This document shows, one piece after another, positions 2,264 to 8,279 of a stretch of 35,085 bases of DNA. The stretch comes from an uncultured bacterium (GTDB taxonomy: Bacteria; Omnitrophota; Omnitrophia; Omnitrophales; Aquincolibacteriaceae): positions 1 through 35,085 of the forward strand of contig CAZKMJ010000002.1 in assembly GCA_964553835.1 (NCBI GenBank). The letters are read 5' to 3'. The position numbers and the translations under genes were made by a program. Each line of letters opens with the position of its first letter. The stretch's first letter is position 1. Below the pieces are notes generated by a model that saw only the letters and a list, made by a program, of their open reading frames with translations, was not told where the DNA came from and did not search any database.

Positions 2264-3352
2264 ATGGATACAAATAAAAAGAAAATTCTTGTCGCTATGA
2301 GCGGCGGTGTCGACAGTTCTGTGGCCGCGGCCCTTTTGAAAGACCAGGGCCATGAAGTCGCTGGTGCGACTATACGCACGTGGGCTTCGGACAGCTGCGC
2401 GGATCTGAACACTCGTGCCTGTTGCGGGCTTTCGGGCGTGGAAGACGCGCGTGACGTGGCCGAATCGCTTGGCATCAAGTATTGGGTATTTAATTTTGAA
2501 AAAGATTTCAAGAAACACGTTGTCGATTATTTTGCGGCTGAATATCTGAAGGGCCGCACGCCCAATCCGTGCGTGGCCTGCAATGAACACATCAAGTTCC
2601 GGCTTTTTTTGAAACGCGCCCAAGAACTTGGCTTTGATGCTATTGCCACCGGGCATTATGCGCAGCTAGTGCATGATGAGCAGGGAAATATTGTGCTTTC
2701 AGAGGGCGTGGACGCGGGCAAGGACCAGTCCTACGTTCTTTTTCCTCTCGAAAAAGAAGTGCTGCGGAACCTTTATCTTCCCATCGGTGGTTTCACTAAA
2801 TCTGAAATTCGCGTGCGTGCCGCTGGCATGAAGCTTAAAGTCGCGGGCAAGCCGGACTCGCAGGAAATCTGCTTTATCCCAAGCAATGATTACAGCCAGT
2901 TCCTGAAAAAGGAATACAAGGAGGCTTCGCCGCGCAAAGGTATTATTCGCACCCGGGGCGGTGAAGTGCTGGGCGAGCATGAAGGTTTTTTTAATTATAC
3001 GCGCGGGCAGCGCCGGGGTCTTGGAGGTGGAAATTCCGAGCGCCTGTATGTGCTGGAAACCATTCCTGAAACTAATGAGGTCGTCGTAGGAACCCGTGAA
3101 GAAATTTTTGGCCTGAATTGCACAGTGGGCCGGTTTAACTGGTTCGCGCGTCCTGCCGAAAATGATTTCAAAGCGCATGTGAAGATCCGCTCCCAGCATC
3201 GCAAGGCCGCGGCTGAAGTCCGGGTCCTGGATGACCATTCTGTGGCGATTGAATTTGAAGAACCTCAGGACGCTATCACTCCAGGGCAGGGCGCTGTCAT
3301 TTACAATGGAAGCATGGTGCTTGGTGGAGGCTGGATCGATACGGTAAAATGA
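2264..3352 (+). CDS. mnmA: tRNA-specific 2-thiouridylase MnmA
   Basis: 362-aa ORF. PP-loop VAMSGGVDSSV, catalytic-Cys context NPCVACN, GKDQSY and QEICF motifs. Confidence 0.95.
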   Translation: MDTNKKKILVAMSGGVDSSVAAALLKDQGHEVAGATIRTWASDSCADLNTRACCGLSGVEDARDVAESLGIKYWVFNFEKDFKKHVVDYFAAEYLKGRTPNPCVACNEHIKFRLFLKRAQELGFDAIATGHYAQLVHDEQGNIVLSEGVDAGKDQSYVLFPLEKEVLRNLYLPIGGFTKSEIRVRAAGMKLKVAGKPDSQEICFIPSNDYSQFLKKEYKEASPRKGIIRTRGGEVLGEHEGFFNYTRGQRRGLGGGNSERLYVLETIPETNEVVVGTREEIFGLNCTVGRFNWFARPAENDFKAHVKIRSQHRKAAAEVRVLDDHSVAIEFEEPQDAITPGQGAVIYNGSMVLGGGWIDTVK

Positions 3353-4599
3353 AACTTTTAAAGCTCGAAAACAAAAAAGATATTTTCTTCCTCGTCTGGA
3401 CCATCCACCGTCCGTCCACTCCGCCTGCCAAAACCATTACTCCTCTCAAACAATTTTCCGGATTCGAAGCCGCGGCCTGCGTCAAAGAAGGTGACAAAGT
3501 TCTTTTGGGGCAGAAAATCGCTGAAGCCGGGCATGAAGACAACGTGGACTTGCATGCGCCTGTTTCAGGAAAAGTCTCCCGCGTTTTCAATGCTCAACAC
3601 CCCGTTTTTGGAAAATCGCAGGCCATCGAAATTATTTCAGACGGACTGGACGAAAAATGTCCGGGCTATGGTCTCGATCGAGTTTGGGAAAAATCAAAGC
3701 CACAAGAGTTGATCGAGCGTTTCCGAAGCATGGGCGTTGTGGACATGAATCTGAAAATGGAGCCTGTCCATAGCAAGCTGCGCAAAAAAAGCGGCTCCAT
3801 TATTTTGAATGCTTGCGAGTCCGACCCTTATCTTGCTTCAAATTATTCTTTGATCATGTCTCATCCACTCGAAGTGCTCAAAGGCGCCGATATCCTTCGA
3901 AGGGCAGCGGGAGCCGAAAAAATAGTGTTCGTCACGGAAAATGAAAAGCGTGAGGCGGCGGAGCTGGTTAAAAGCAAAATTTATTTTCTGAAATGGGAGC
4001 ATGCCGAAGCAGTCATGATTCCTTCCGGATACCCGGATGACGAAGCGTTGCTGGCCCGCCGCGCGGGCATAGAACAGGGCGTTGTGTTTGATCTGGCCAC
4101 TGCATTTGCCGCCTATGAAGCCGTTGCCCTGAACAAACCATTGATAGAAAGAGTCGTGACGGTCGCCGGGGAATGTGTCATGGAACCCAAAAATGTATGG
4201 GCCAGGACGGGGGCGGAATTTGGAGCCGTTGTTAAAACCTGTAAAGGTTTTATGCGGGAACCCCGTAAATTACTGATGGGCGGTCCCATGGGGGGCCGTG
4301 CCCAGACGCGCCTGGACGTTCCGGTAGTCGCGGGGACACAGGGTATCCTGGCACTTCCAAAGGAAGTCGCTAGACCTGAAGACCCGGAACCTTGTATCCG
4401 GTGCGGGCGCTGTATTGAGGTTTGTCCTGAAAATCTTTCGCCGGCGCTGATCAGCCTTGCGGCTGAAAACGACCTTTTTGCTCTGGCCAAGGATTATGGC
4501 GCGGACCTTTGCGTTGAATGCGGCAATTGTGCCTATGTTTGTCCGGCAAAACGTCCCATGACCGAGTTAATGCGTTATGCGGCGGGCGGACCGTCTTGA
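3349..4599 (+). CDS. rnfC: RnfC-like subunit (divergent; two 4Fe-4S motifs kept, Gly-rich nucleotide loop absent)
   Basis: 416-aa ORF. It is collinear with RnfC: HAPVSGKV, LNACESDPY (canonical INAAECEPY), ERVVTVAGE..P.NVWAR.G, MGGPMGG, LDVPVV, then CIRCGRCIEVCP and CVECGNCAYVCP. ATGA overlap with the mnmA stop. Confidence 0.8.
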   Translation: MKLLKLENKKDIFFLVWTIHRPSTPPAKTITPLKQFSGFEAAACVKEGDKVLLGQKIAEAGHEDNVDLHAPVSGKVSRVFNAQHPVFGKSQAIEIISDGLDEKCPGYGLDRVWEKSKPQELIERFRSMGVVDMNLKMEPVHSKLRKKSGSIILNACESDPYLASNYSLIMSHPLEVLKGADILRRAAGAEKIVFVTENEKREAAELVKSKIYFLKWEHAEAVMIPSGYPDDEALLARRAGIEQGVVFDLATAFAAYEAVALNKPLIERVVTVAGECVMEPKNVWARTGAEFGAVVKTCKGFMREPRKLLMGGPMGGRAQTRLDVPVVAGTQGILALPKEVARPEDPEPCIRCGRCIEVCPENLSPALISLAAENDLFALAKDYGADLCVECGNCAYVCPAKRPMTELMRYAAGGPS

Positions 4600-4653: not shown

Positions 4654-5940
4654 ATGAAGCCCAATCCGTTTTTCTCCGGTTTTGTCTGCGGCGTTGCCCT
4701 GACTCTTGCTTCCATCATTGTCATTCTTACTTATAATAAGAATTACGCGCCGACAGTTCCTGCGAATCCGCTGATCCCGGAAACCGGCGCTATCCAGCTG
4801 GCCCAGGCCGGCGGAAGGGCCCTGAACCTGACCCCACCCACGCGTGGTCCGGTCACTGCTCCCGTAACGATCATTGATTATTCGGATTTCTACTGCGGCT
4901 TCTGCAAAAAAGTCATGCCTACACTGCTGCAGGTCACTAAAAATTATCCGGACAAGGTTAAACTTGTTTTCAAGCATCATCCATTGTCGCAGACACCCGG
5001 TCAGGGTTCGTATTTTGTTCATGAAGCGGCTGTCTGTGCGCATGAGCAGGCCAAGTTCTGGGAATTTTTTGAAGCTGCTTTCGCGTATTCCGGGCATCCG
5101 GATCCCGCCGCGGTACGGCAGATCGCATCTCAGATTGGTTTGAATTCTCAACTTTTTGAGGGCTGTTTGAAAACCGATCGGCCCAAAAAAGTGATCGAAG
5201 CAGATTTGCGCGAGGCGCAGTCACAGAAAGTGGATGGAACTCCTACTTTCTTCATCAACGGAGAAGTTCTTGCGGGCGCTTATCCTTATGAGACTTTCCA
5301 GTCTAAAATCGAATCGATTATAAACCCGAGGCAGGCGGGAACTGCGCCTGCAGCCGCGGCCGCGGCTGCTCCGAAGGCCGTTCCGCAAATCGCGCCTCAG
5401 CCGGTTCAGCGCGCGGAATTTAATGATTTGAAAGGCCGTCCCTCCCAGGGGCCTGAAAAAGCTCCTATTACCATTGTTCAGTTCAGTGATTTTCACTGCC
5501 CGTTTTGTGTGCGCGTAGAGCCGACCATGGACCAGATCATGAAAGAATATCAAGGTCAAGTGCGCAAGGTGTGGCGTCATTTTCCGTTGTCCATGCACAT
5601 CGGCGCGGACAGGACACATGTGGCCTCTGAATGCGCCAATAAACAGGGGAAATTCTGGGAATATCATGACAAGTTGTTTAAGAATTTTTCGGCGCCCAAG
5701 GACGATGGTCTTTACATTTCCATCGCTAAGGAAATCGGTTTGAAAGAGAAAGATTTTAAAAAATGTTTGAACGATGAGGGCATGCTGCAGCAGATCCGCG
5801 ACGACATAAGCGCGGGCTCCAAAGTTGGTGTCAGCGGAACGCCGGTGGCTTTTATCAATGGCCTCAAGTTGACTGGCGCCCAGCCTTTCACTTCCTTCAA
5901 GCGCGTGATTGACGACGAGCTTCAAAAAGCAAAAAAATGA
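4654..5940 (+). CDS. Membrane-anchored tandem DsbA-family thiol:disulfide oxidoreductase (two thioredoxin-fold domains)
   Basis: 428-aa ORF. N-terminal hydrophobic anchor FVCGVALTLASIIVILTY. Two paralogous DsbA-like domains with active sites YSDFYCGFCKK and FSDFHCPFCVR. Each domain ends in GTP.FFING / GTPVAFING (cis-Pro loop). The domains are joined by an Ala/Pro linker AGTAPAAAAAAAPKAVPQIAPQP. Confidence 0.85.
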   Translation: MKPNPFFSGFVCGVALTLASIIVILTYNKNYAPTVPANPLIPETGAIQLAQAGGRALNLTPPTRGPVTAPVTIIDYSDFYCGFCKKVMPTLLQVTKNYPDKVKLVFKHHPLSQTPGQGSYFVHEAAVCAHEQAKFWEFFEAAFAYSGHPDPAAVRQIASQIGLNSQLFEGCLKTDRPKKVIEADLREAQSQKVDGTPTFFINGEVLAGAYPYETFQSKIESIINPRQAGTAPAAAAAAAPKAVPQIAPQPVQRAEFNDLKGRPSQGPEKAPITIVQFSDFHCPFCVRVEPTMDQIMKEYQGQVRKVWRHFPLSMHIGADRTHVASECANKQGKFWEYHDKLFKNFSAPKDDGLYISIAKEIGLKEKDFKKCLNDEGMLQQIRDDISAGSKVGVSGTPVAFINGLKLTGAQPFTSFKRVIDDELQKAKK

Positions 5941-5946
5941 GGCTTC

Positions 5947-6780
5947 GTGAGCTACAGCTCCGGCGTCAATCCGCACATCCGCTCATCTGAAACAGTACAG
6001 AGCCTGACGTGGTCCATGGTCATGGCTCTTCTGCCCGCGGTTTTCGCGCATATTTTTTTCTTTCCAGCGCGGGCGGTGTTTCTGGTCCTTCTGCTTTTCA
6101 CAGCCTCCATTCTTGAGGAAATAACCTTTATCATTTTCCGCGACCTGCCGCTGAAAAAATATCAGGACTTCAAAAACGGCACCATTTTTCTTTACGCGCT
6201 TGTTTTCTTTATGATTGTGCCAGTTTCGCTGCCCATGTTTCCGGCCGCGGCGGGATTTGCATTTTCTCTTTTTTTCACGCGCTCGGTTTTCGGGGGGCAG
6301 GGCGCCGCGTTTTTTCATCCGGCACTTGCTGCGCTCATATTTTTAAGGGTCCTTTTTCAGGGCTCGGGATTTTTCCGGGCATATGCCTATCCGCCGTCTC
6401 TTTTTTCCTGGTCCGTGCGCGGGCTGCTTGCTTCCGGCGGGATTTATTTAATTTTCCGCAAAACTTTCCGGCCTCAGGTGCCTTTGGTTTTTCTCTTCTC
6501 GGTCTTTGGATTTTCACTTCTTTTTCAGCTTCCGCAGGATTCCGCGCACGCCGCGTTCTGGTTGTTGACCGGATTTTTCGCGGCGGTGGATTTTGGAACA
6601 GCGCCCATGCATGATTCGGGGCGTGTGATTTACGCTTTTTTATCCGGGCTTATCGCGGCTTTTCTTGAAAGCGGAGGCCTGGGAACCGGAACCGCGTGCG
6701 CATTCGCGGTTTTGACCGGAAATATCATGACGCCGTGGCTGGATATCGCGCGTGTTAAGAAAGCGCTGAACCATGTTTAA
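5947..6780 (+). CDS. rnfD: RnfD/NqrB-like polytopic membrane subunit, shortened (277 aa)
   Basis: GTG start. Matches RnfD landmarks by eye: N-terminal S..PHIRS, FGGQGAAFFHPALAA (canonical YGG.G.NPFNPAM), and C-terminal LLTG..AAVDFGTAP ... GTACAFAVLTGNIMTPWLD (canonical LLSGAT..TDPVT ... GVAFAVLLAN..VPLID). Confidence 0.75.
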   Translation: MSYSSGVNPHIRSSETVQSLTWSMVMALLPAVFAHIFFFPARAVFLVLLLFTASILEEITFIIFRDLPLKKYQDFKNGTIFLYALVFFMIVPVSLPMFPAAAGFAFSLFFTRSVFGGQGAAFFHPALAALIFLRVLFQGSGFFRAYAYPPSLFSWSVRGLLASGGIYLIFRKTFRPQVPLVFLFSVFGFSLLFQLPQDSAHAAFWLLTGFFAAVDFGTAPMHDSGRVIYAFLSGLIAAFLESGGLGTGTACAFAVLTGNIMTPWLDIARVKKALNHV

Positions 6781-7273
6781 AAAACTCATGCCCGGTTTAA
6801 AAATTTGTTTTTTTGTTTTGTATGTTACCGCCATTATTTCAGGCGTTGTTCTGTGCTACGGGCCTCGCAGCCAGAGGGGTTCACAACAGCTCCAGGAAGA
6901 CCTTAAAAAAATTCTGCCCCATTTTGACAACAAGCCCTGGGAAGAAACGTTTAATGTAGACGGGTTCCAGGTTTTTCCGGCACGCGCTGAACGCAAAGTA
7001 CAGTTTGAGGGTTCTGCGGAATCCGTTACAGCCAATGCCCTGAGCGGTTTCGCGGTCAAGGCACCCAAATACCGGGACAGCGAAGGTTTGAACCCCTTGA
7101 TCGCGGGTTTCGATCTGGAAGGCAACATCACAGGCATGCGCAATGTTTTTCACCGGCCGGGACTCGTGCCTGAAAATGAAATTTCTTCGGAAACCCGGTT
7201 TAAAGCCAAACTGTTTTTCGAACACAGGCGTTCTGTCATGTTGGAAAAAGCCAATGAAGGGGCCATGGCATGA
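6773..7273 (+). CDS. RnfG/NqrC-like subunit, truncated (166 aa)
   Basis: N-terminal TM helix ICFFVLYVTAIISGVVL. The stretch NPLIAGFDLEGNITGMRNVFHRPGL resembles the RnfG core (llvGid.dG.ItGv.vl.H.ETPGLG). Position after the rnfD-like gene matches rnfCDGEA order. 8-nt overlap with the upstream gene. Confidence 0.45.
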   Translation: MFKKLMPGLKICFFVLYVTAIISGVVLCYGPRSQRGSQQLQEDLKKILPHFDNKPWEETFNVDGFQVFPARAERKVQFEGSAESVTANALSGFAVKAPKYRDSEGLNPLIAGFDLEGNITGMRNVFHRPGLVPENEISSETRFKAKLFFEHRRSVMLEKANEGAMA

Positions 7274-7809
7274 AAAAGAGGGCCCCACTTCCTTCTTTCA
7301 TAGAAGCCGCGGCCCCGGTTTTTCCTCTTTGGACATTTCTTTTGCAGTGGGACGGCGCGCTGGAAACCGTTTTGGCTGCCGCAGTGGTTTATCTGGCTGT
7401 GTCCCTGCTTTTCGAACTGATCTCACCCGCGTTTCCAAAAAACCTGCTGGCGTTTGCCAAAGTTTTGACAGTTTGTTCCGCGGTCTATGCTCTGCCCGGT
7501 TTTTATGAAAATGCGCCGGCTATTGCCCTGAGTGTATGTCTTCTGGAATTTCCGCTGCAGAGCGTGAAAAAACGCGCGGGCAAAAGCCCCGCACTTGCCA
7601 AAATAATTTGTTTCGCGGGACTTGCGGTTTATCTGGCGGCCGCGCAGGAAATTCTGGGCCGCCAGTTCCATTGGCCGGTTTTTCAGCGTGTGCCCGGGAC
7701 TTTTTTCCTGCTTTCTCTTCCCGCGGTTTTGTGGCCAGTCAGCCGCAAAAGGGTCCGTGCTCTCCGCACGAGAATCAAAAAAGTTTCCCTGGGGGGCGCG
7801 CCCGCGTGA
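7270..7809 (+). CDS. Hydrophobic membrane protein in the RnfE/NqrD position (weak similarity)
   Basis: 179-aa ORF, multi-TM. AQEILGRQ and PGTFFLLSLPAVL faintly recall RnfE (LREIIGNG, PPGAFI.LGL). The assignment rests mostly on synteny. ATGA overlap upstream and GTGA overlap downstream. Confidence 0.4.
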   Translation: MKKRAPLPSFIEAAAPVFPLWTFLLQWDGALETVLAAAVVYLAVSLLFELISPAFPKNLLAFAKVLTVCSAVYALPGFYENAPAIALSVCLLEFPLQSVKKRAGKSPALAKIICFAGLAVYLAAAQEILGRQFHWPVFQRVPGTFFLLSLPAVLWPVSRKRVRALRTRIKKVSLGGAPA

Positions 7810-8279
7810 ACACATTATTTTTTTCCGCGGCAGCTTTCGCGTTCCTCTTTTCCATTGAACGTGAAAAAACAAGCATGGCCAAGGTTCTGGAAGAAACTTT
7901 TATGGTTTTTTCCTGCGTTGCCCTGATTGCGGCCACGGGATTAAAAAATGATTTAGCGGTTTGGATAATTCCGGCTGTCTTTGCCGCTTGTTCGCTTGCC
8001 TGCAAACCTTTGATTTTTTTTGCCGCGATCTGCGGACTTTCCTTTTCTTTTCTGGAAACCGCGCCTTATGTCACTCACTTGTCGGGAATTCTGCAGTCCG
8101 CGGTGCTTTTCGCGGGTCTGAGGATCTTTGTGGAGGGGTTCCGGCAAAGGGGGCTGTTTTTCCGGCCGCCCTCGCGCTTCGCGGGCATCCCGGCCCTTTT
8201 GATGCAGGCTTTCTGGGCCTCTTTATTTTTATCTGCATGGCTGCTTTTGCCTTATTGGTCGCGGCCTGCGGGCATTTAA
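7806..8279 (+). CDS. Hydrophobic membrane protein in the RnfA/NqrE position (RnfA-like C-terminus)
   Basis: In-frame GTG at 7806 inside track ORF 7536..8279; the first 90 codons of that ORF overlap the previous gene. The C-terminal ILQSAVLFAGLRIFVEGFRQRG..PPSRFAGIPALLMQAFWASLFLS parallels RnfA [35 protein letters not shown]. Confidence 0.5.
   Translation: MNTLFFSAAAFAFLFSIEREKTSMAKVLEETFMVFSCVALIAATGLKNDLAVWIIPAVFAACSLACKPLIFFAAICGLSFSFLETAPYVTHLSGILQSAVLFAGLRIFVEGFRQRGLFFRPPSRFAGIPALLMQAFWASLFLSAWLLLPYWSRPAGI

What the first reader, a model, noticed from the sequence alone, without database searches (positions are those of the whole stretch)
3730..3831. RnfC-like protein lacks the Gly-rich NADH/FMN loop but keeps both 4Fe-4S motifs
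In canonical RnfC the segment before INAAECEPY carries a G-x-G-G-A-G-F-P-type loop (E. coli RsxC: FGVAGLGGAGFPTGVKL, from memory). Here the collinear segment reads MGVVDMNLKMEPVHSKL and has no glycine cluster, and the downstream acidic motif is ACESDPY.

The two C-terminal ferredoxin motifs, CIRCGRCIEVCP and CVECGNCAYVCP (nt ~4390-4550), are intact. This predicts a subunit that can relay electrons through FeS clusters but cannot bind NADH or FMN the usual way. That would change the electron donor or acceptor of the whole module.
Basis: partly seen in the sequence, partly recalled or inferred. Interest (0 to 1): 0.6.

Follow-up and report, generated by a model that had tools for sequence, protein, structure and literature searches.

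The report
Flavin-less RnfC in stripped-down Rnf
This gene encodes an RnfC-type iron-sulfur protein whose NADH/flavin pocket has been dismantled; it belongs to a cofactor-stripped remnant of the Rnf membrane redox pump that is kept across one whole order of Omnitrophota, so the "Rnf" annotated in these bacteria is very unlikely to be the textbook ferredoxin:NAD+ pump.

Summary
ORF 3349-4599 (416 aa) has the RnfC fold: AlphaFold pLDDT 95, TM 0.88-0.92 to solved RnfC. It keeps all eight cysteines of the two 4Fe-4S motifs. Where solved RnfC reads G-I-V-G-[LM]-G-G-A-x-F-P, it reads G-V-V-D-M-N-L-K-M-E-P, and no other glycine cluster exists.

Other flavin/NADH signature residues are gone too: ECEPY is now CESDPY, YPQGxE is now YPDDEA, Asn264 is Asp and Lys344 is Ala.

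The loss is not private to this genome. All 120 closest database homologs lack the loop.

In a 201-genome Omnitrophota sample, 84 genomes of this order carry the RnfC-like gene, and only one of them has recognisable RnfA/E. All 77 RnfC-bearing genomes outside the order have RnfA/E. The 20 of those I read keep every motif.

That one in-order genome has a canonical rnfCDGEAB at the same locus, and other families show intermediate loops. This points to in-place erosion.

The rest of the operon is also stripped. It has no RnfB, no flavinylation threonines in RnfD'/RnfG', no 2Fe-2S cysteines in RnfE'/A', and the genome has no ApbE.

The best reading is an Fe-S-only cap on a repurposed Rnf chassis. 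Its function is unknown.

The parts
3349..4599 (+). rnfC' : 416-aa RnfC-fold protein, flavin/NADH site lost, 2x[4Fe-4S] kept
   Evidence: TIGR01945 scores 288 bits (cut-off 246). Pfam finds RnfC_N, a partial Complex1_51K and Fer4. AF2 pLDDT is 95.4. Foldseek TM is 0.88-0.92 to RnfC chains.
3742..3762 (+). degenerate former Gly-rich FMN-phosphate loop (D132-M-N-L-K-M-E138)
   Evidence: Aligned without gaps to G134-x-G-G-A-x-F140 of 7zc6_C, 9eri_C and 8ahx_C. These columns are the most variable of the segment in the clade: entropy 1.9-3.5 against a protein mean of 1.52.
3808..3831 (+). N-A-C-E-S-D-P-Y, altered NxxECEPY motif (Cys moved two positions upstream)
   Evidence: Canonical C164 is present in 74 of 74 and absent in 112 of 112 clade members. 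C156 is present in 107 of 112 clade members against 12 of 74 canonical.
4030..4047 (+). YPDDEA in place of canonical YPQGxE
   Evidence: G235 is present in 74 of 74 canonical sequences (not a selection column).
4084..4101 (+). VFDLAT in place of canonical VxNVxT (Asn264 to Asp)
   Evidence: N264 is present in 73 of 74 canonical and in 20 of 20 out-of-order Omnitrophota.
4393..4428 (+). first 4Fe-4S motif CIRCGRCIEVCP
   Evidence: All four Cys are 99-100% conserved in the clade and in canonical RnfC.
4510..4545 (+). second 4Fe-4S motif CVECGNCAYVCP
   Evidence: Same as the first motif.
4654..5940 (+). membrane-anchored tandem DsbA/thioredoxin protein (CGFC, CPFC) inserted between rnfC' and rnfD'
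   Evidence: Pfam Thioredoxin_4 and DSBA; NF041057 at 218 bits. The same insertion is seen in G001, G002, G003, G005, G006, G017 and G020.
5947..6780 (+). rnfD' : short RnfD without the flavinylated Thr segment; riboflavin-ligand Asp kept
   Evidence: PF03116 E=4e-39. The alignment to G029 RnfD shows the TTAT segment deleted. The alignment to 9eri_D shows D249 kept and N123 changed to His.
6773..7273 (+). rnfG' : truncated RnfG-like protein lacking the xTGAT flavinylation site
   Evidence: TIGR01947 E=0.006. Iterated HMM search reaches only G029 RnfG. Alignment.
7270..7809 (+). rnfE' : highly diverged RnfE-like membrane protein, no conserved 2Fe-2S cysteines
   Evidence: Iterated HMM search reaches G029 RnfE and RnfA. 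Weak PF02508 hits occur at the syntenic spot in relatives. Alignment.
7806..8279 (+). rnfA' : highly diverged RnfA-like membrane protein (GTG start overlapping the rnfE' stop), no 2Fe-2S cysteines
   Evidence: Iterated HMM search reaches G029 RnfA. Alignment.
2264..3352 (+). mnmA, upstream gene whose stop overlaps the rnfC' start by 4 nt
   Evidence: NF001138 at 414 bits. Synteny mnmA-(PP-loop)-rnfC...pilT is conserved across the order, including the canonical G029.

Best explanation
Shown by sequence and fold.
- ORF 3349-4599 is a true descendant of RnfC.
- It has lost the glycine-rich FMN-phosphate/NADH loop and several other residues that are invariant in NAD(H)-linked RnfC.
- It keeps both [4Fe-4S] motifs.
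- It sits in an operon (rnfC'-dsbA2-rnfD'-rnfG'-rnfE'-rnfA') that descends in place from a canonical rnfCDGEAB.
- That operon has also lost RnfB, the covalent-FMN threonines of RnfD and RnfG, and the [2Fe-2S] cysteines of RnfA/E.
- The genome has no ApbE flavin transferase.
- This state is shared by essentially a whole order of Omnitrophota and is under purifying selection.

Inferred.
- RnfC' no longer oxidises or reduces NAD(H), and the complex cannot run the Rnf ferredoxin:NAD+ ion-pumping cycle.
- RnfC' probably still caps RnfD'. The N-terminal PHIR arm of RnfD is conserved, and one relative has a C-D gene fusion.
- My preferred mechanism (about 35%) is that RnfC' acts as a one-electron Fe-S relay. 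It would run between a cytoplasmic one-electron carrier, reaching the clusters through the vacated cleft, and a non-covalent riboflavin retained in RnfD'.
- The near-equal alternative is an NqrA-like non-catalytic cap whose clusters are structural or regulatory.

The confidence given below is for the loss-of-site and stripped-complex claims, not for the electron-relay mechanism.
For: Fold and family.
- TIGR01945 is above its cut-off.
- AF2 pLDDT is 95.4 and pTM 0.93.
- Foldseek gives TM 0.88-0.92 and rmsd 2.3-2.9 A to 9eri_C, 8ahx_C and 7zc6_C. NqrA gives only about 0.7.

Loop and other motifs lost.

Family-wide loss.
- 120 of 120 closest homologs lack the loop.
- Among 50%-identity representatives, the loop reappears only below about 262 bits.

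Order-level split.
- 84 in-order genomes have the RnfC-like gene, and 1 of them has PF02508.
- 77 of 77 out-of-order genomes with RnfC have PF02508.
- 20 of 20 sampled out-of-order RnfC keep all motifs. 20 further in-order ones do not, except one near-canonical loop in family f7.

In-place erosion.
- G029 has canonical rnfCDGEAB with GMGGAMFP/ECEPY, the RnfD TTAT motif and ApbE, at the locus that has mnmA upstream.
- Graded intermediates are listed.
- In the tree the canonical clade has 99/98 support, the partial forms sit between, and the lost clade has 100/99 support.

Other subunits stripped.
-.
- tblastn with G029 RnfB, G, E and A finds nothing in the own genome.

Selection.
- 28 invariant and about 70 nearly invariant columns among 110 sequences of about 45% identity.
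- Omega is about 0.15 against the congener, with saturated dS.
- 26 of 26 high-quality relatives keep one copy.

C'-D' contact.
- The PHIR arm is conserved. PMC9588780 says this arm is buried in RnfC.
- G035 has a C-D fusion.

Riboflavin site.
- D249 is kept and N123 becomes His.
- The ligand identities come from PMC11889175.
Against: - No cofactor content or activity was measured. Loss of FMN/NADH binding is inferred from motifs.
- Half of the old pocket stays conserved in the clade: N154, E157, E159, P160, Y161 and K143. This could mean some ligand is still bound there.
- I could not read the model's coordinates, so the pocket geometry was not inspected.
- The membrane subunits evolve fast: 38-54% identity within the genus against 95% for PilT. 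This fits a loosely constrained scaffold better than a precise electron wire.
- The genome is a 94.8%-complete MAG, so the absence of RnfB and ApbE is not absolute. However, the whole genus and most of the family lack ApbE as well.
Confidence: 0.75

Rival explanations
1. NqrA-like pseudo-subunit. RnfC' is a non-catalytic cytoplasmic cap. Its two clusters are kept only for folding or as a redox or oxygen sensor. The stripped membrane core does a non-redox job such as ion leak, transport or scaffolding.
For: - Precedent: NqrA is an RnfC homolog without any cofactor (PMC11889175, PMC12174285).
- Every other redox site of the complex is gone.
- The membrane subunits evolve fast.
- The loop columns themselves are relaxed.
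Against: - All eight Fe-S cysteines are 99-100% conserved over more than 110 divergent sequences and 40 further genomes. NqrA lost them.
- The riboflavin-ligand Asp of RnfD is retained.
- Part of the old pocket is still conserved.
Confidence: 0.3
2. RnfC' still binds a flavin, or NAD(H), in a non-canonical way. An example is riboflavin, which needs no phosphate-binding loop. In that case RnfC' would remain a two-electron/one-electron converter.
For: - N154, E157, E159, P160, Y161, K143 and T251 of the old site remain conserved.
- Relatives of family f7 (G030, G036, G154) keep a near-canonical GMGG[RKE]GFP loop, YPQGSE, NVAT and K344, although they have already lost RnfB and RnfG.
Against: - In this protein five loop residues, G235/E237, N264 and K344 are all replaced. 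Acidic D132 and E138 now sit where the phosphate loop and the Phe were.
- In relatives the loop is variable or even deleted.
Confidence: 0.1
3. The vacated pocket has become a new cysteine- or metal-based redox site next to the [4Fe-4S] chain. The candidate residues are C156, E275-C276 and H141/H172. It would do ferredoxin-dependent thiol or sulfur chemistry.
For: - C156 is present in 107 of 112, E275 and C276 in 112 of 112, and H172 in 92% of the clade.
- C156 and C276 never co-occur in 74 canonical RnfC.
- By alignment C156 takes the place of NuoF Asp94, a flavin contact (my own knowledge of NuoF).
- The neighbours are sulfur or thiol proteins: mnmA, a PP-loop ATPase, trxA and the DsbA pair.
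Against: - C276 is already common in canonical Omnitrophota RnfC, 12 of 20, so it is not a new ligand.
- The sulfur-gene synteny also holds for the canonical G029 operon.
- No distance could be measured.
Confidence: 0.08
4. Decaying relic, pseudogene or assembly error.
For: Many functional motifs are lost, and the membrane subunits evolve fast.
Against: - The ORFs are intact with coupled starts.
- One copy is present in 26 of 26 high-quality relatives.
- There are clade-specific invariant residues.
- Omega is well below 1.
- The fold is predicted with confidence.
Confidence: 0.02

Closest known systems
RnfC / RsxC, the NAD(H)-binding subunit of the Rnf ferredoxin:NAD+ oxidoreductase (PDB 7ZC6, 9ERI, 8AHX)
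   Same: - Same four-part architecture: RnfC_N barrel, NuoF-like Rossmann domain, SLBB domain and a C-terminal 2x[4Fe-4S] ferredoxin domain.
- TM 0.88-0.92 to the solved chains.
- Same operon position ahead of rnfD.
- The orthologous locus holds a canonical rnfCDGEAB in relative G029.
   Different: - Gly-rich FMN/NADH loop lost.
- ECEPY cysteine moved.
- YPQGxE, Asn264 and Lys344 replaced.
- Partner subunits stripped of their cofactor sites.
- No RnfB.
NqrA of Na+-NQR (for example PDB 4U9O, 7XK3)
   Same: An RnfC homolog that lost the FMN/NADH site during evolution of a derived complex and remains as a cytoplasmic cap on the RnfD/NqrB homolog.
   Different: - NqrA also lost both Fe-S clusters, while this protein keeps all eight cysteines.
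- Fold similarity is much lower (TM about 0.7).
- NCBIfam NqrA models score far below their cut-offs.
- Nqr kept the covalent FMNs, the 2Fe-2S cluster and ApbE, and gained NqrF. None of that applies here.
NuoF / HydB / Nqo1 51-kDa FMN-NADH module (Pfam Complex1_51K)
   Same: Homologous Rossmann-like and SLBB domains. The NxxExEP motif is retained.
   Different: - Only positions 4-110 of 150 of the domain model match, at 53 bits.
- GxGGAGFP is absent.
- The genome's real NuoF-like protein (contig C44) has GLGGAGFP.
PrdC, RnfC-like electron-transfer protein of D-proline reductase (TIGR04481)
   Same: RnfC-derived soluble protein used outside a classical Rnf complex.
   Different: - Scores 82 bits against a cut-off of 490.
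- Different C-terminus.
- No proline reductase genes nearby.

Membership tests
RnfC (TIGR01945 subfamily; NAD(H)-linked subunit of Rnf) | Whole-protein HMM score above the curated cut-off | tested here: met
   288.2 bits against a cut-off of 245.95. The equivalog models RsxC (266 against 345) and rnfC_Methano (192 against 650) are not reached.
RnfC (TIGR01945 subfamily; NAD(H)-linked subunit of Rnf) | RnfC fold: N-terminal barrel sandwich, NuoF-like domain, SLBB domain and ferredoxin domain | tested here: met
   AF2 pLDDT 95.4. TM 0.88-0.92 to 9eri_C, 8ahx_C and 7zc6_C.
RnfC (TIGR01945 subfamily; NAD(H)-linked subunit of Rnf) | Glycine-rich FMN/NADH loop GxGGAxFP and companion residues (ECEPY Cys, D171, YPQGxE, N264, K344) | tested here: not met
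   The protein reads DMNLKME, CESDPY, N165, YPDDEA, D248 and A328.
RnfC (TIGR01945 subfamily; NAD(H)-linked subunit of Rnf) | Two CxxCxxCxxxCP [4Fe-4S] motifs | tested here: met
   Residues 349-360 and 388-399. Conserved across the clade.
RnfC (TIGR01945 subfamily; NAD(H)-linked subunit of Rnf) | Non-covalent FMN bound, and NADH oxidation or NAD+ reduction | not testable with these tools
   Needs purified protein. The motifs argue against it.
Rnf complex (RnfABCDGE) | All six subunits with their cofactor sites: RnfB polyferredoxin, RnfA/E [2Fe-2S] cysteines, RnfD and RnfG flavinylated Thr, ApbE in the genome | tested here: not met
   - No PF02508 and no ApbE in the genome.
- tblastn with G029 RnfB, G, E and A finds nothing.
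- RnfD' lacks TTAT.
- RnfG' lacks ITGAT, and RnfE'/A' lack the Cys pairs.
NqrA (TIGR01936 and NF0037xx) | HMM above cut-off; no Fe-S motifs; part of the nqrABCDEF operon | tested here: not met
   36-45 bits against cut-offs of 321-505. Fe-S motifs are present. No nqr genes were found.
PrdC (TIGR04481) | HMM above cut-off; prd operon context | tested here: not met
   82.5 bits against 490. The neighbours are mnmA, a DsbA-like gene, rnfD' and pilT.

The most novel reading that the evidence does not exclude
A whole respiratory pump has been converted into a new kind of membrane Fe-S machine.

After losing the flavin, RnfC' would use the emptied pocket as a thiol- or metal-based active site fed by its two [4Fe-4S] clusters. 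The candidate residues are the relocated Cys156, the invariant Glu275-Cys276 and His141/His172. The arrangement would resemble ferredoxin:thioredoxin reductase or heterodisulfide reductase.

That site would link cytoplasmic ferredoxin to sulfur or thiol chemistry. Alternatively, through riboflavin in RnfD', it would link to the membrane-anchored tandem DsbA encoded inside the operon.
Probability: 0.08. Interest if true: 0.85.

Novelty: new variant of a known kind. Interest (0 to 1): 0.6.

Why it matters
Annotation and metabolic models.
- Annotation pipelines name these proteins "RnfABCDGE type electron transport complex subunit C" (names).
- Published metabolic reconstructions of Omnitrophota credit the phylum with a working Rnf that balances ferredoxin and NAD+ and builds an ion gradient (PMC8542988, PMC10066038).
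- For one large order this is very probably wrong. In my sample, 83 of 84 genomes that carry the gene lack recognisable RnfA/E. These organisms need another route to re-oxidise ferredoxin, and their energy budgets should be redrawn.

Evolution of Rnf and Nqr.
- For Rnf/Nqr specialists this is a natural series of cofactor loss inside one order.
- It runs from canonical, through forms lacking RnfB and RnfG but keeping the NADH loop, to forms with the loop eroded or deleted.
- It parallels the RnfC-to-NqrA transition but stops at a different point: Fe-S kept, flavin lost.
- It offers ready-made natural variants for asking what the RnfC clusters and the RnfD riboflavin can do on their own.

Tried and rejected
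1. A displaced Gly-rich loop elsewhere in the protein: none found. The only glycine cluster, MGGPMGG at 310-316, is the GGPMxG motif that canonical RnfC also has.
2. The idea that the Rnf remnant replaces a missing DsbB, VKOR or CcdA partner for the embedded tandem DsbA. The genome has a VKOR homolog and a CcdA/DsbD_TM homolog, though no DsbB. No such need is evident, so the idea is weakened but not excluded.
3. mnmA and PP-loop (LarE-like) linkage as a clue to a new sulfur-related function. The same synteny flanks the canonical rnfCDGEAB of G029, so it is inherited gene order and not specific evidence.
4. C156 and C276 as a newly acquired cysteine pair. C276 is already present in 12 of 20 canonical Omnitrophota RnfC. 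Only C156 and the fixation of E275-C276 are clade-specific.
5. Inspecting the pocket in the AF2 model. The coordinates are not exposed to the Python box, so no distances could be measured.
6. dN/dS. dS is saturated (1.2-3.0, or not computable) even against the closest genome, so omega values are rough.
8. The search for related loci with the single protein found only one close relative and gave no useful organism names.
9. Literature searches for a described flavin-less RnfC or a partial Rnf in Omnitrophota found nothing.
Full report
**What is at the coordinates**

The window carries an ORF at 3349-4599 (+), 416 aa. Nucleotides 3730-3831 encode residues 128-161, MGVVDMNLKMEPVHSKLRKKSGSIILNACESDPY. 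The two ferredoxin motifs CIRCGRCIEVCP and CVECGNCAYVCP lie at nt 4393-4428 and 4510-4545.

**Is it an RnfC?**

- NCBIfam TIGR01945 (rnfC subfamily) scores 288 bits against a cut-off of 246. The stricter equivalog models (RsxC, methanogen RnfC, PrdC, NqrA) are not reached.
- Pfam finds RnfC_N, a partial and weak Complex1_51K (model positions 4-110 of 150, 53 bits), a sub-threshold SLBB, and Fer4 motifs.
- An AlphaFold2 model built on 110 homologs is very confident: pLDDT 95.4, pTM 0.93.
- The model superposes on the solved RnfC chains 9eri_C, 8ahx_C and 7zc6_C with TM 0.88-0.92 and rmsd 2.3-2.9 A. NqrA reaches about 0.7 and NuoF/HydB about 0.5.
- So this is an RnfC by descent and by fold.

**The loop**

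- phmmer alignments to the three solved RnfC run through the segment without gaps.
- Solved RnfC reads G-I-V-G-[LM]-G-G-A-[TI]-F-P-T-H-V-K-L. This protein reads G-V-V-D-M-N-L-K-M-E-P-V-H-S-K-L.
- Three glycines, the alanine and the phenylalanine become D, N, L, K and E.
- Residues 100-170 contain only four scattered glycines. The Pfam domain alignment is collinear, so there is no displaced loop.
- As an internal control, the genome's NuoF-like protein on contig C44 sits in a NuoE/F/G-like cluster. It has a full-length Complex1_51K match (151 bits) and reads GLGGAGFP.

**More than the loop is lost**

I contrasted 112 close homologs with 74 canonical RnfC. The canonical set was chosen by a regex on the loop and on ECEPY, so its 100% at those columns is circular. 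The other columns are independent.

| Position (C. tetanomorphum numbering) | Canonical RnfC | This protein |
|---|---|---|
| D171 | 72 of 74 | N |
| G235 of YPQGxE | 74 of 74 | YPDDEA |
| N264 of VxNVxT | 73 of 74 | D |
| K344 | 73 of 74 | A |
| ECEPY cysteine | 74 of 74 (selection column) | absent; a Cys sits two residues upstream (NACESDPY) |

All eight Fe-S cysteines are kept.

According to the structural papers, RnfC holds one non-covalent FMN between the NuoF-like domains and the ferredoxin domain. NADH stacks on it, and the two clusters wire it to the riboflavin of RnfD (PMC9588780, PMC11889175, PMC12174285). That the Gly-rich loop binds the FMN phosphate is my knowledge of NuoF/Nqo1. 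It was not tested here.

**How widespread is it?**

- None of the 120 best hits among 5.8 billion proteins has the loop. These hits are 42-77% identical, many are labelled Candidatus Omnitrophota, and some delete the loop outright.
- Among 50%-identity representatives the loop is absent down to about 262 bits, with three partial forms. From there on it is the canonical GIVGxGGAxFPTHVKL...NGAECEPY.
- Among 41 relatives, 38 carry one copy, including 26 of 26 high-quality genomes.
- In a 201-genome sample of the phylum the split is clean.
  - Inside the window's order, 84 genomes have the RnfC-like gene and only one (G029) has recognisable RnfA/E (PF02508).
  - Outside the order, 77 genomes have RnfC and the same 77 have RnfA/E.
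- I read 20 of those outside RnfC. All 20 keep the loop, ECEP, YP[QH]GxE, N264 and K344.
- I also read 20 further in-order ones. None is canonical, and one (family f7) keeps a near-canonical GMGGEGFP.

**Erosion in place**

- G029 has a textbook rnfC-D-G-E-A-B. Pfam finds FMN_bind, two Rnf-Nqr proteins at 205-239 bits, and an RnfB-type FeS polyferredoxin.
- Its RnfC reads GVVGMGGAMFP and ECEPY. Its RnfD has a TTAT flavinylation motif. The genome has ApbE.
- It lies at the same locus as the degenerate operons: mnmA and a PP-loop gene upstream, a small thioredoxin downstream, and pilT beyond in relatives.
- Other families of the order show intermediate states.
  - Family f7 (G030, G036, G154) keeps GMGG[RKE]GFP, YPQGSE, NVAT and K344. 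It has already lost RnfB, RnfG and the RnfA/E cysteines.
  - Family f9 keeps D-L-G-G-S.
  - Family f1, which includes this genome, has nothing left or a deletion.
- In a maximum-likelihood tree the canonical sequences, including G029, form one clade (99/98). The partial forms branch between. The fully eroded forms make a 100/99 clade, with at least one separate loss in G031.
- The likely order of events is that the input branch (RnfB, A/E cluster, RnfG) went first, and the NADH/FMN site of RnfC followed.

**The rest of this operon**

The starts are coupled, by overlaps of 4-8 nt or gaps of 6 and 54 nt. After rnfC' come:
- A membrane-anchored tandem DsbA/thioredoxin protein with CGFC and CPFC motifs. 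It is inserted at this spot in at least eight genomes of the family.
- A 277-aa RnfD'. It lacks the segment with the flavinylated threonine. It keeps the Asp that binds the ribityl of riboflavin in A. woodii RnfD (D249), and has His for N123.
- Three small proteins without Pfam hits. Iterated HMM searches on a small local ORF set link them specifically to G029's RnfG, RnfE and RnfA. The E-values are therefore optimistic, but the specificity and the synteny agree.
  - RnfG' stops before the ITGAT site.
  - RnfE' and RnfA' have no conserved counterparts of the four [2Fe-2S] cysteines.

The 94.8%-complete genome has no PF02508, no ApbE and no second RnfD. tblastn with G029's RnfB, G, E and A finds nothing.

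**Selection**

- The clade has 28 invariant and about 70 nearly invariant columns at about 45% mean identity.
- It has its own fixed residues: C156, E275-C276, W284, R303 and a YFLKW insertion at 212-216.
- The former loop columns are the most variable of their neighbourhood.
- Against the congener G003, omega is about 0.15 for rnfC' and 0.19-0.34 for rnfD', rnfE' and rnfA' (it could not be computed for rnfG'). dS is saturated, so these are rough.
- Within the genus the membrane subunits are only 38-54% identical, while PilT is 95% identical.
- The module is maintained, but the membrane part is loosely constrained.

**Interpretation**

The firm part (about 0.75-0.85):
- RnfC' cannot bind FMN and NADH the canonical way.
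- The complex cannot perform the Rnf ferredoxin:NAD+ ion-pumping cycle.

Evidence that RnfC' probably still sits on RnfD':
- The PHIR N-terminal arm of RnfD is conserved. In the solved complex this arm is buried inside RnfC (PMC9588780).
- G035 encodes a C-D fusion.

What it does now is open.
- I favour slightly (about 35%) a short one-electron relay, given the strict Fe-S conservation and the retained riboflavin ligand. It would run from a cytoplasmic carrier, through C1/C2, to riboflavin in RnfD'.
- An NqrA-like non-catalytic cap is nearly as likely (about 30%).
- Residual non-canonical flavin binding (about 10%) is kept alive by the conserved N154, E157, E159, Y161 and K143.
- A new Cys- or metal-based site in the pocket (about 8%) is the boldest reading. 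It is weakened because C276 pre-exists in canonical Omnitrophota RnfC, and because the sulfur-gene synteny also surrounds the canonical operon.

**Comparison with the known, and novelty**

- The closest known protein is RnfC itself. The closest known evolutionary precedent is NqrA, which went further and lost the clusters too.
- I found no paper describing a flavin-less RnfC or a stripped Rnf in Omnitrophota.
- Two genomic surveys credit Omnitrophota with a working Rnf. My data support that for most of the phylum, but not for this order.
- Earlier notes of this scan describe the same phenomenon in other Omnitrophota genomes. I treated them as leads.
- The order-level split, the canonical relative at the same locus and the graded series were established here independently.
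- I class the finding as a new variant of a known kind.

**Limits**

- The model's coordinates could not be read.
- The genomes are MAGs.
- The names of the order and families are hidden behind handles.

Noticed in passing
window 4654-5940: A membrane-anchored protein with two DsbA/BdbD-like domains (CGFC and CPFC, each with a GTP cis-Pro loop) is inserted between rnfC' and rnfD'. The same insertion occurs in G001, G002, G003, G006, G017, G020 and, as a single domain, G005. The genome also has VKOR and CcdA elsewhere (contigs C51 and C47).
   Followed up: partly
L038 1241-3283 (G035): rnfC' and rnfD' are fused into one 680-aa ORF. This is a Rosetta-stone hint that the two proteins still work as a unit.
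   Followed up: partly
L032, L033 (G030, G036) and L092 (G154): Family f7 keeps a near-canonical RnfC NADH/FMN site (GMGG[RKE]GFP, YPQGSE, NVAT, K344). In G030 and G036 the operon has no RnfB or RnfG and only degenerate RnfE/A, and RnfD lacks the flavinylation motif. G154's neighbouring genes were not read. This may be an RnfC-RnfD-only NADH-linked stage.
   Followed up: partly
window 5947-6780: RnfD' keeps the riboflavin-ligand Asp (FFAAVDF, equivalent to A. woodii D249) and has His at the N123 position. The central segment carrying the flavinylated Thr is deleted.
   Followed up: partly
window 2264-3352 / 3349: The mnmA stop overlaps the rnfC' start by 4 nt (ATGA). In relatives a PP-loop (LarE-like) ATPase sits between mnmA and rnfC, and a small thioredoxin follows the rnf genes (G029, G034).
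   Followed up: yes
L001 (own genome, contig C44) 390-3505: There is a NuoE-like, unassigned 169-aa ORF, NuoF-like (GLGGAGFP), NuoG-like cluster. This is the genome's only canonical 51K FMN/NADH module and a candidate replacement for NAD(H)-linked redox balancing.
   Followed up: partly
P0185, P0205, P0206, P0240, P0252, P0254: Other, more distant RnfC-like representatives also lack GGAxFP and read N-C-[VT]-E-S-[DE]-P-Y. The loop loss and the ECEPY-to-ESEPY change may have recurred in other lineages.
   Followed up: no
window 6773-8279 versus L028: Within one genus the RnfD', G', E' and A' proteins are only 38-54% identical, while neighbouring PilT is 95% and MnmA 86% identical. The membrane part evolves unusually fast.
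   Followed up: partly
L043-L048: Pirellulales and Planctomycetota MAGs carry RnfC-like genes about 31% identical to this protein. Their motif state was not examined.
   Followed up: no
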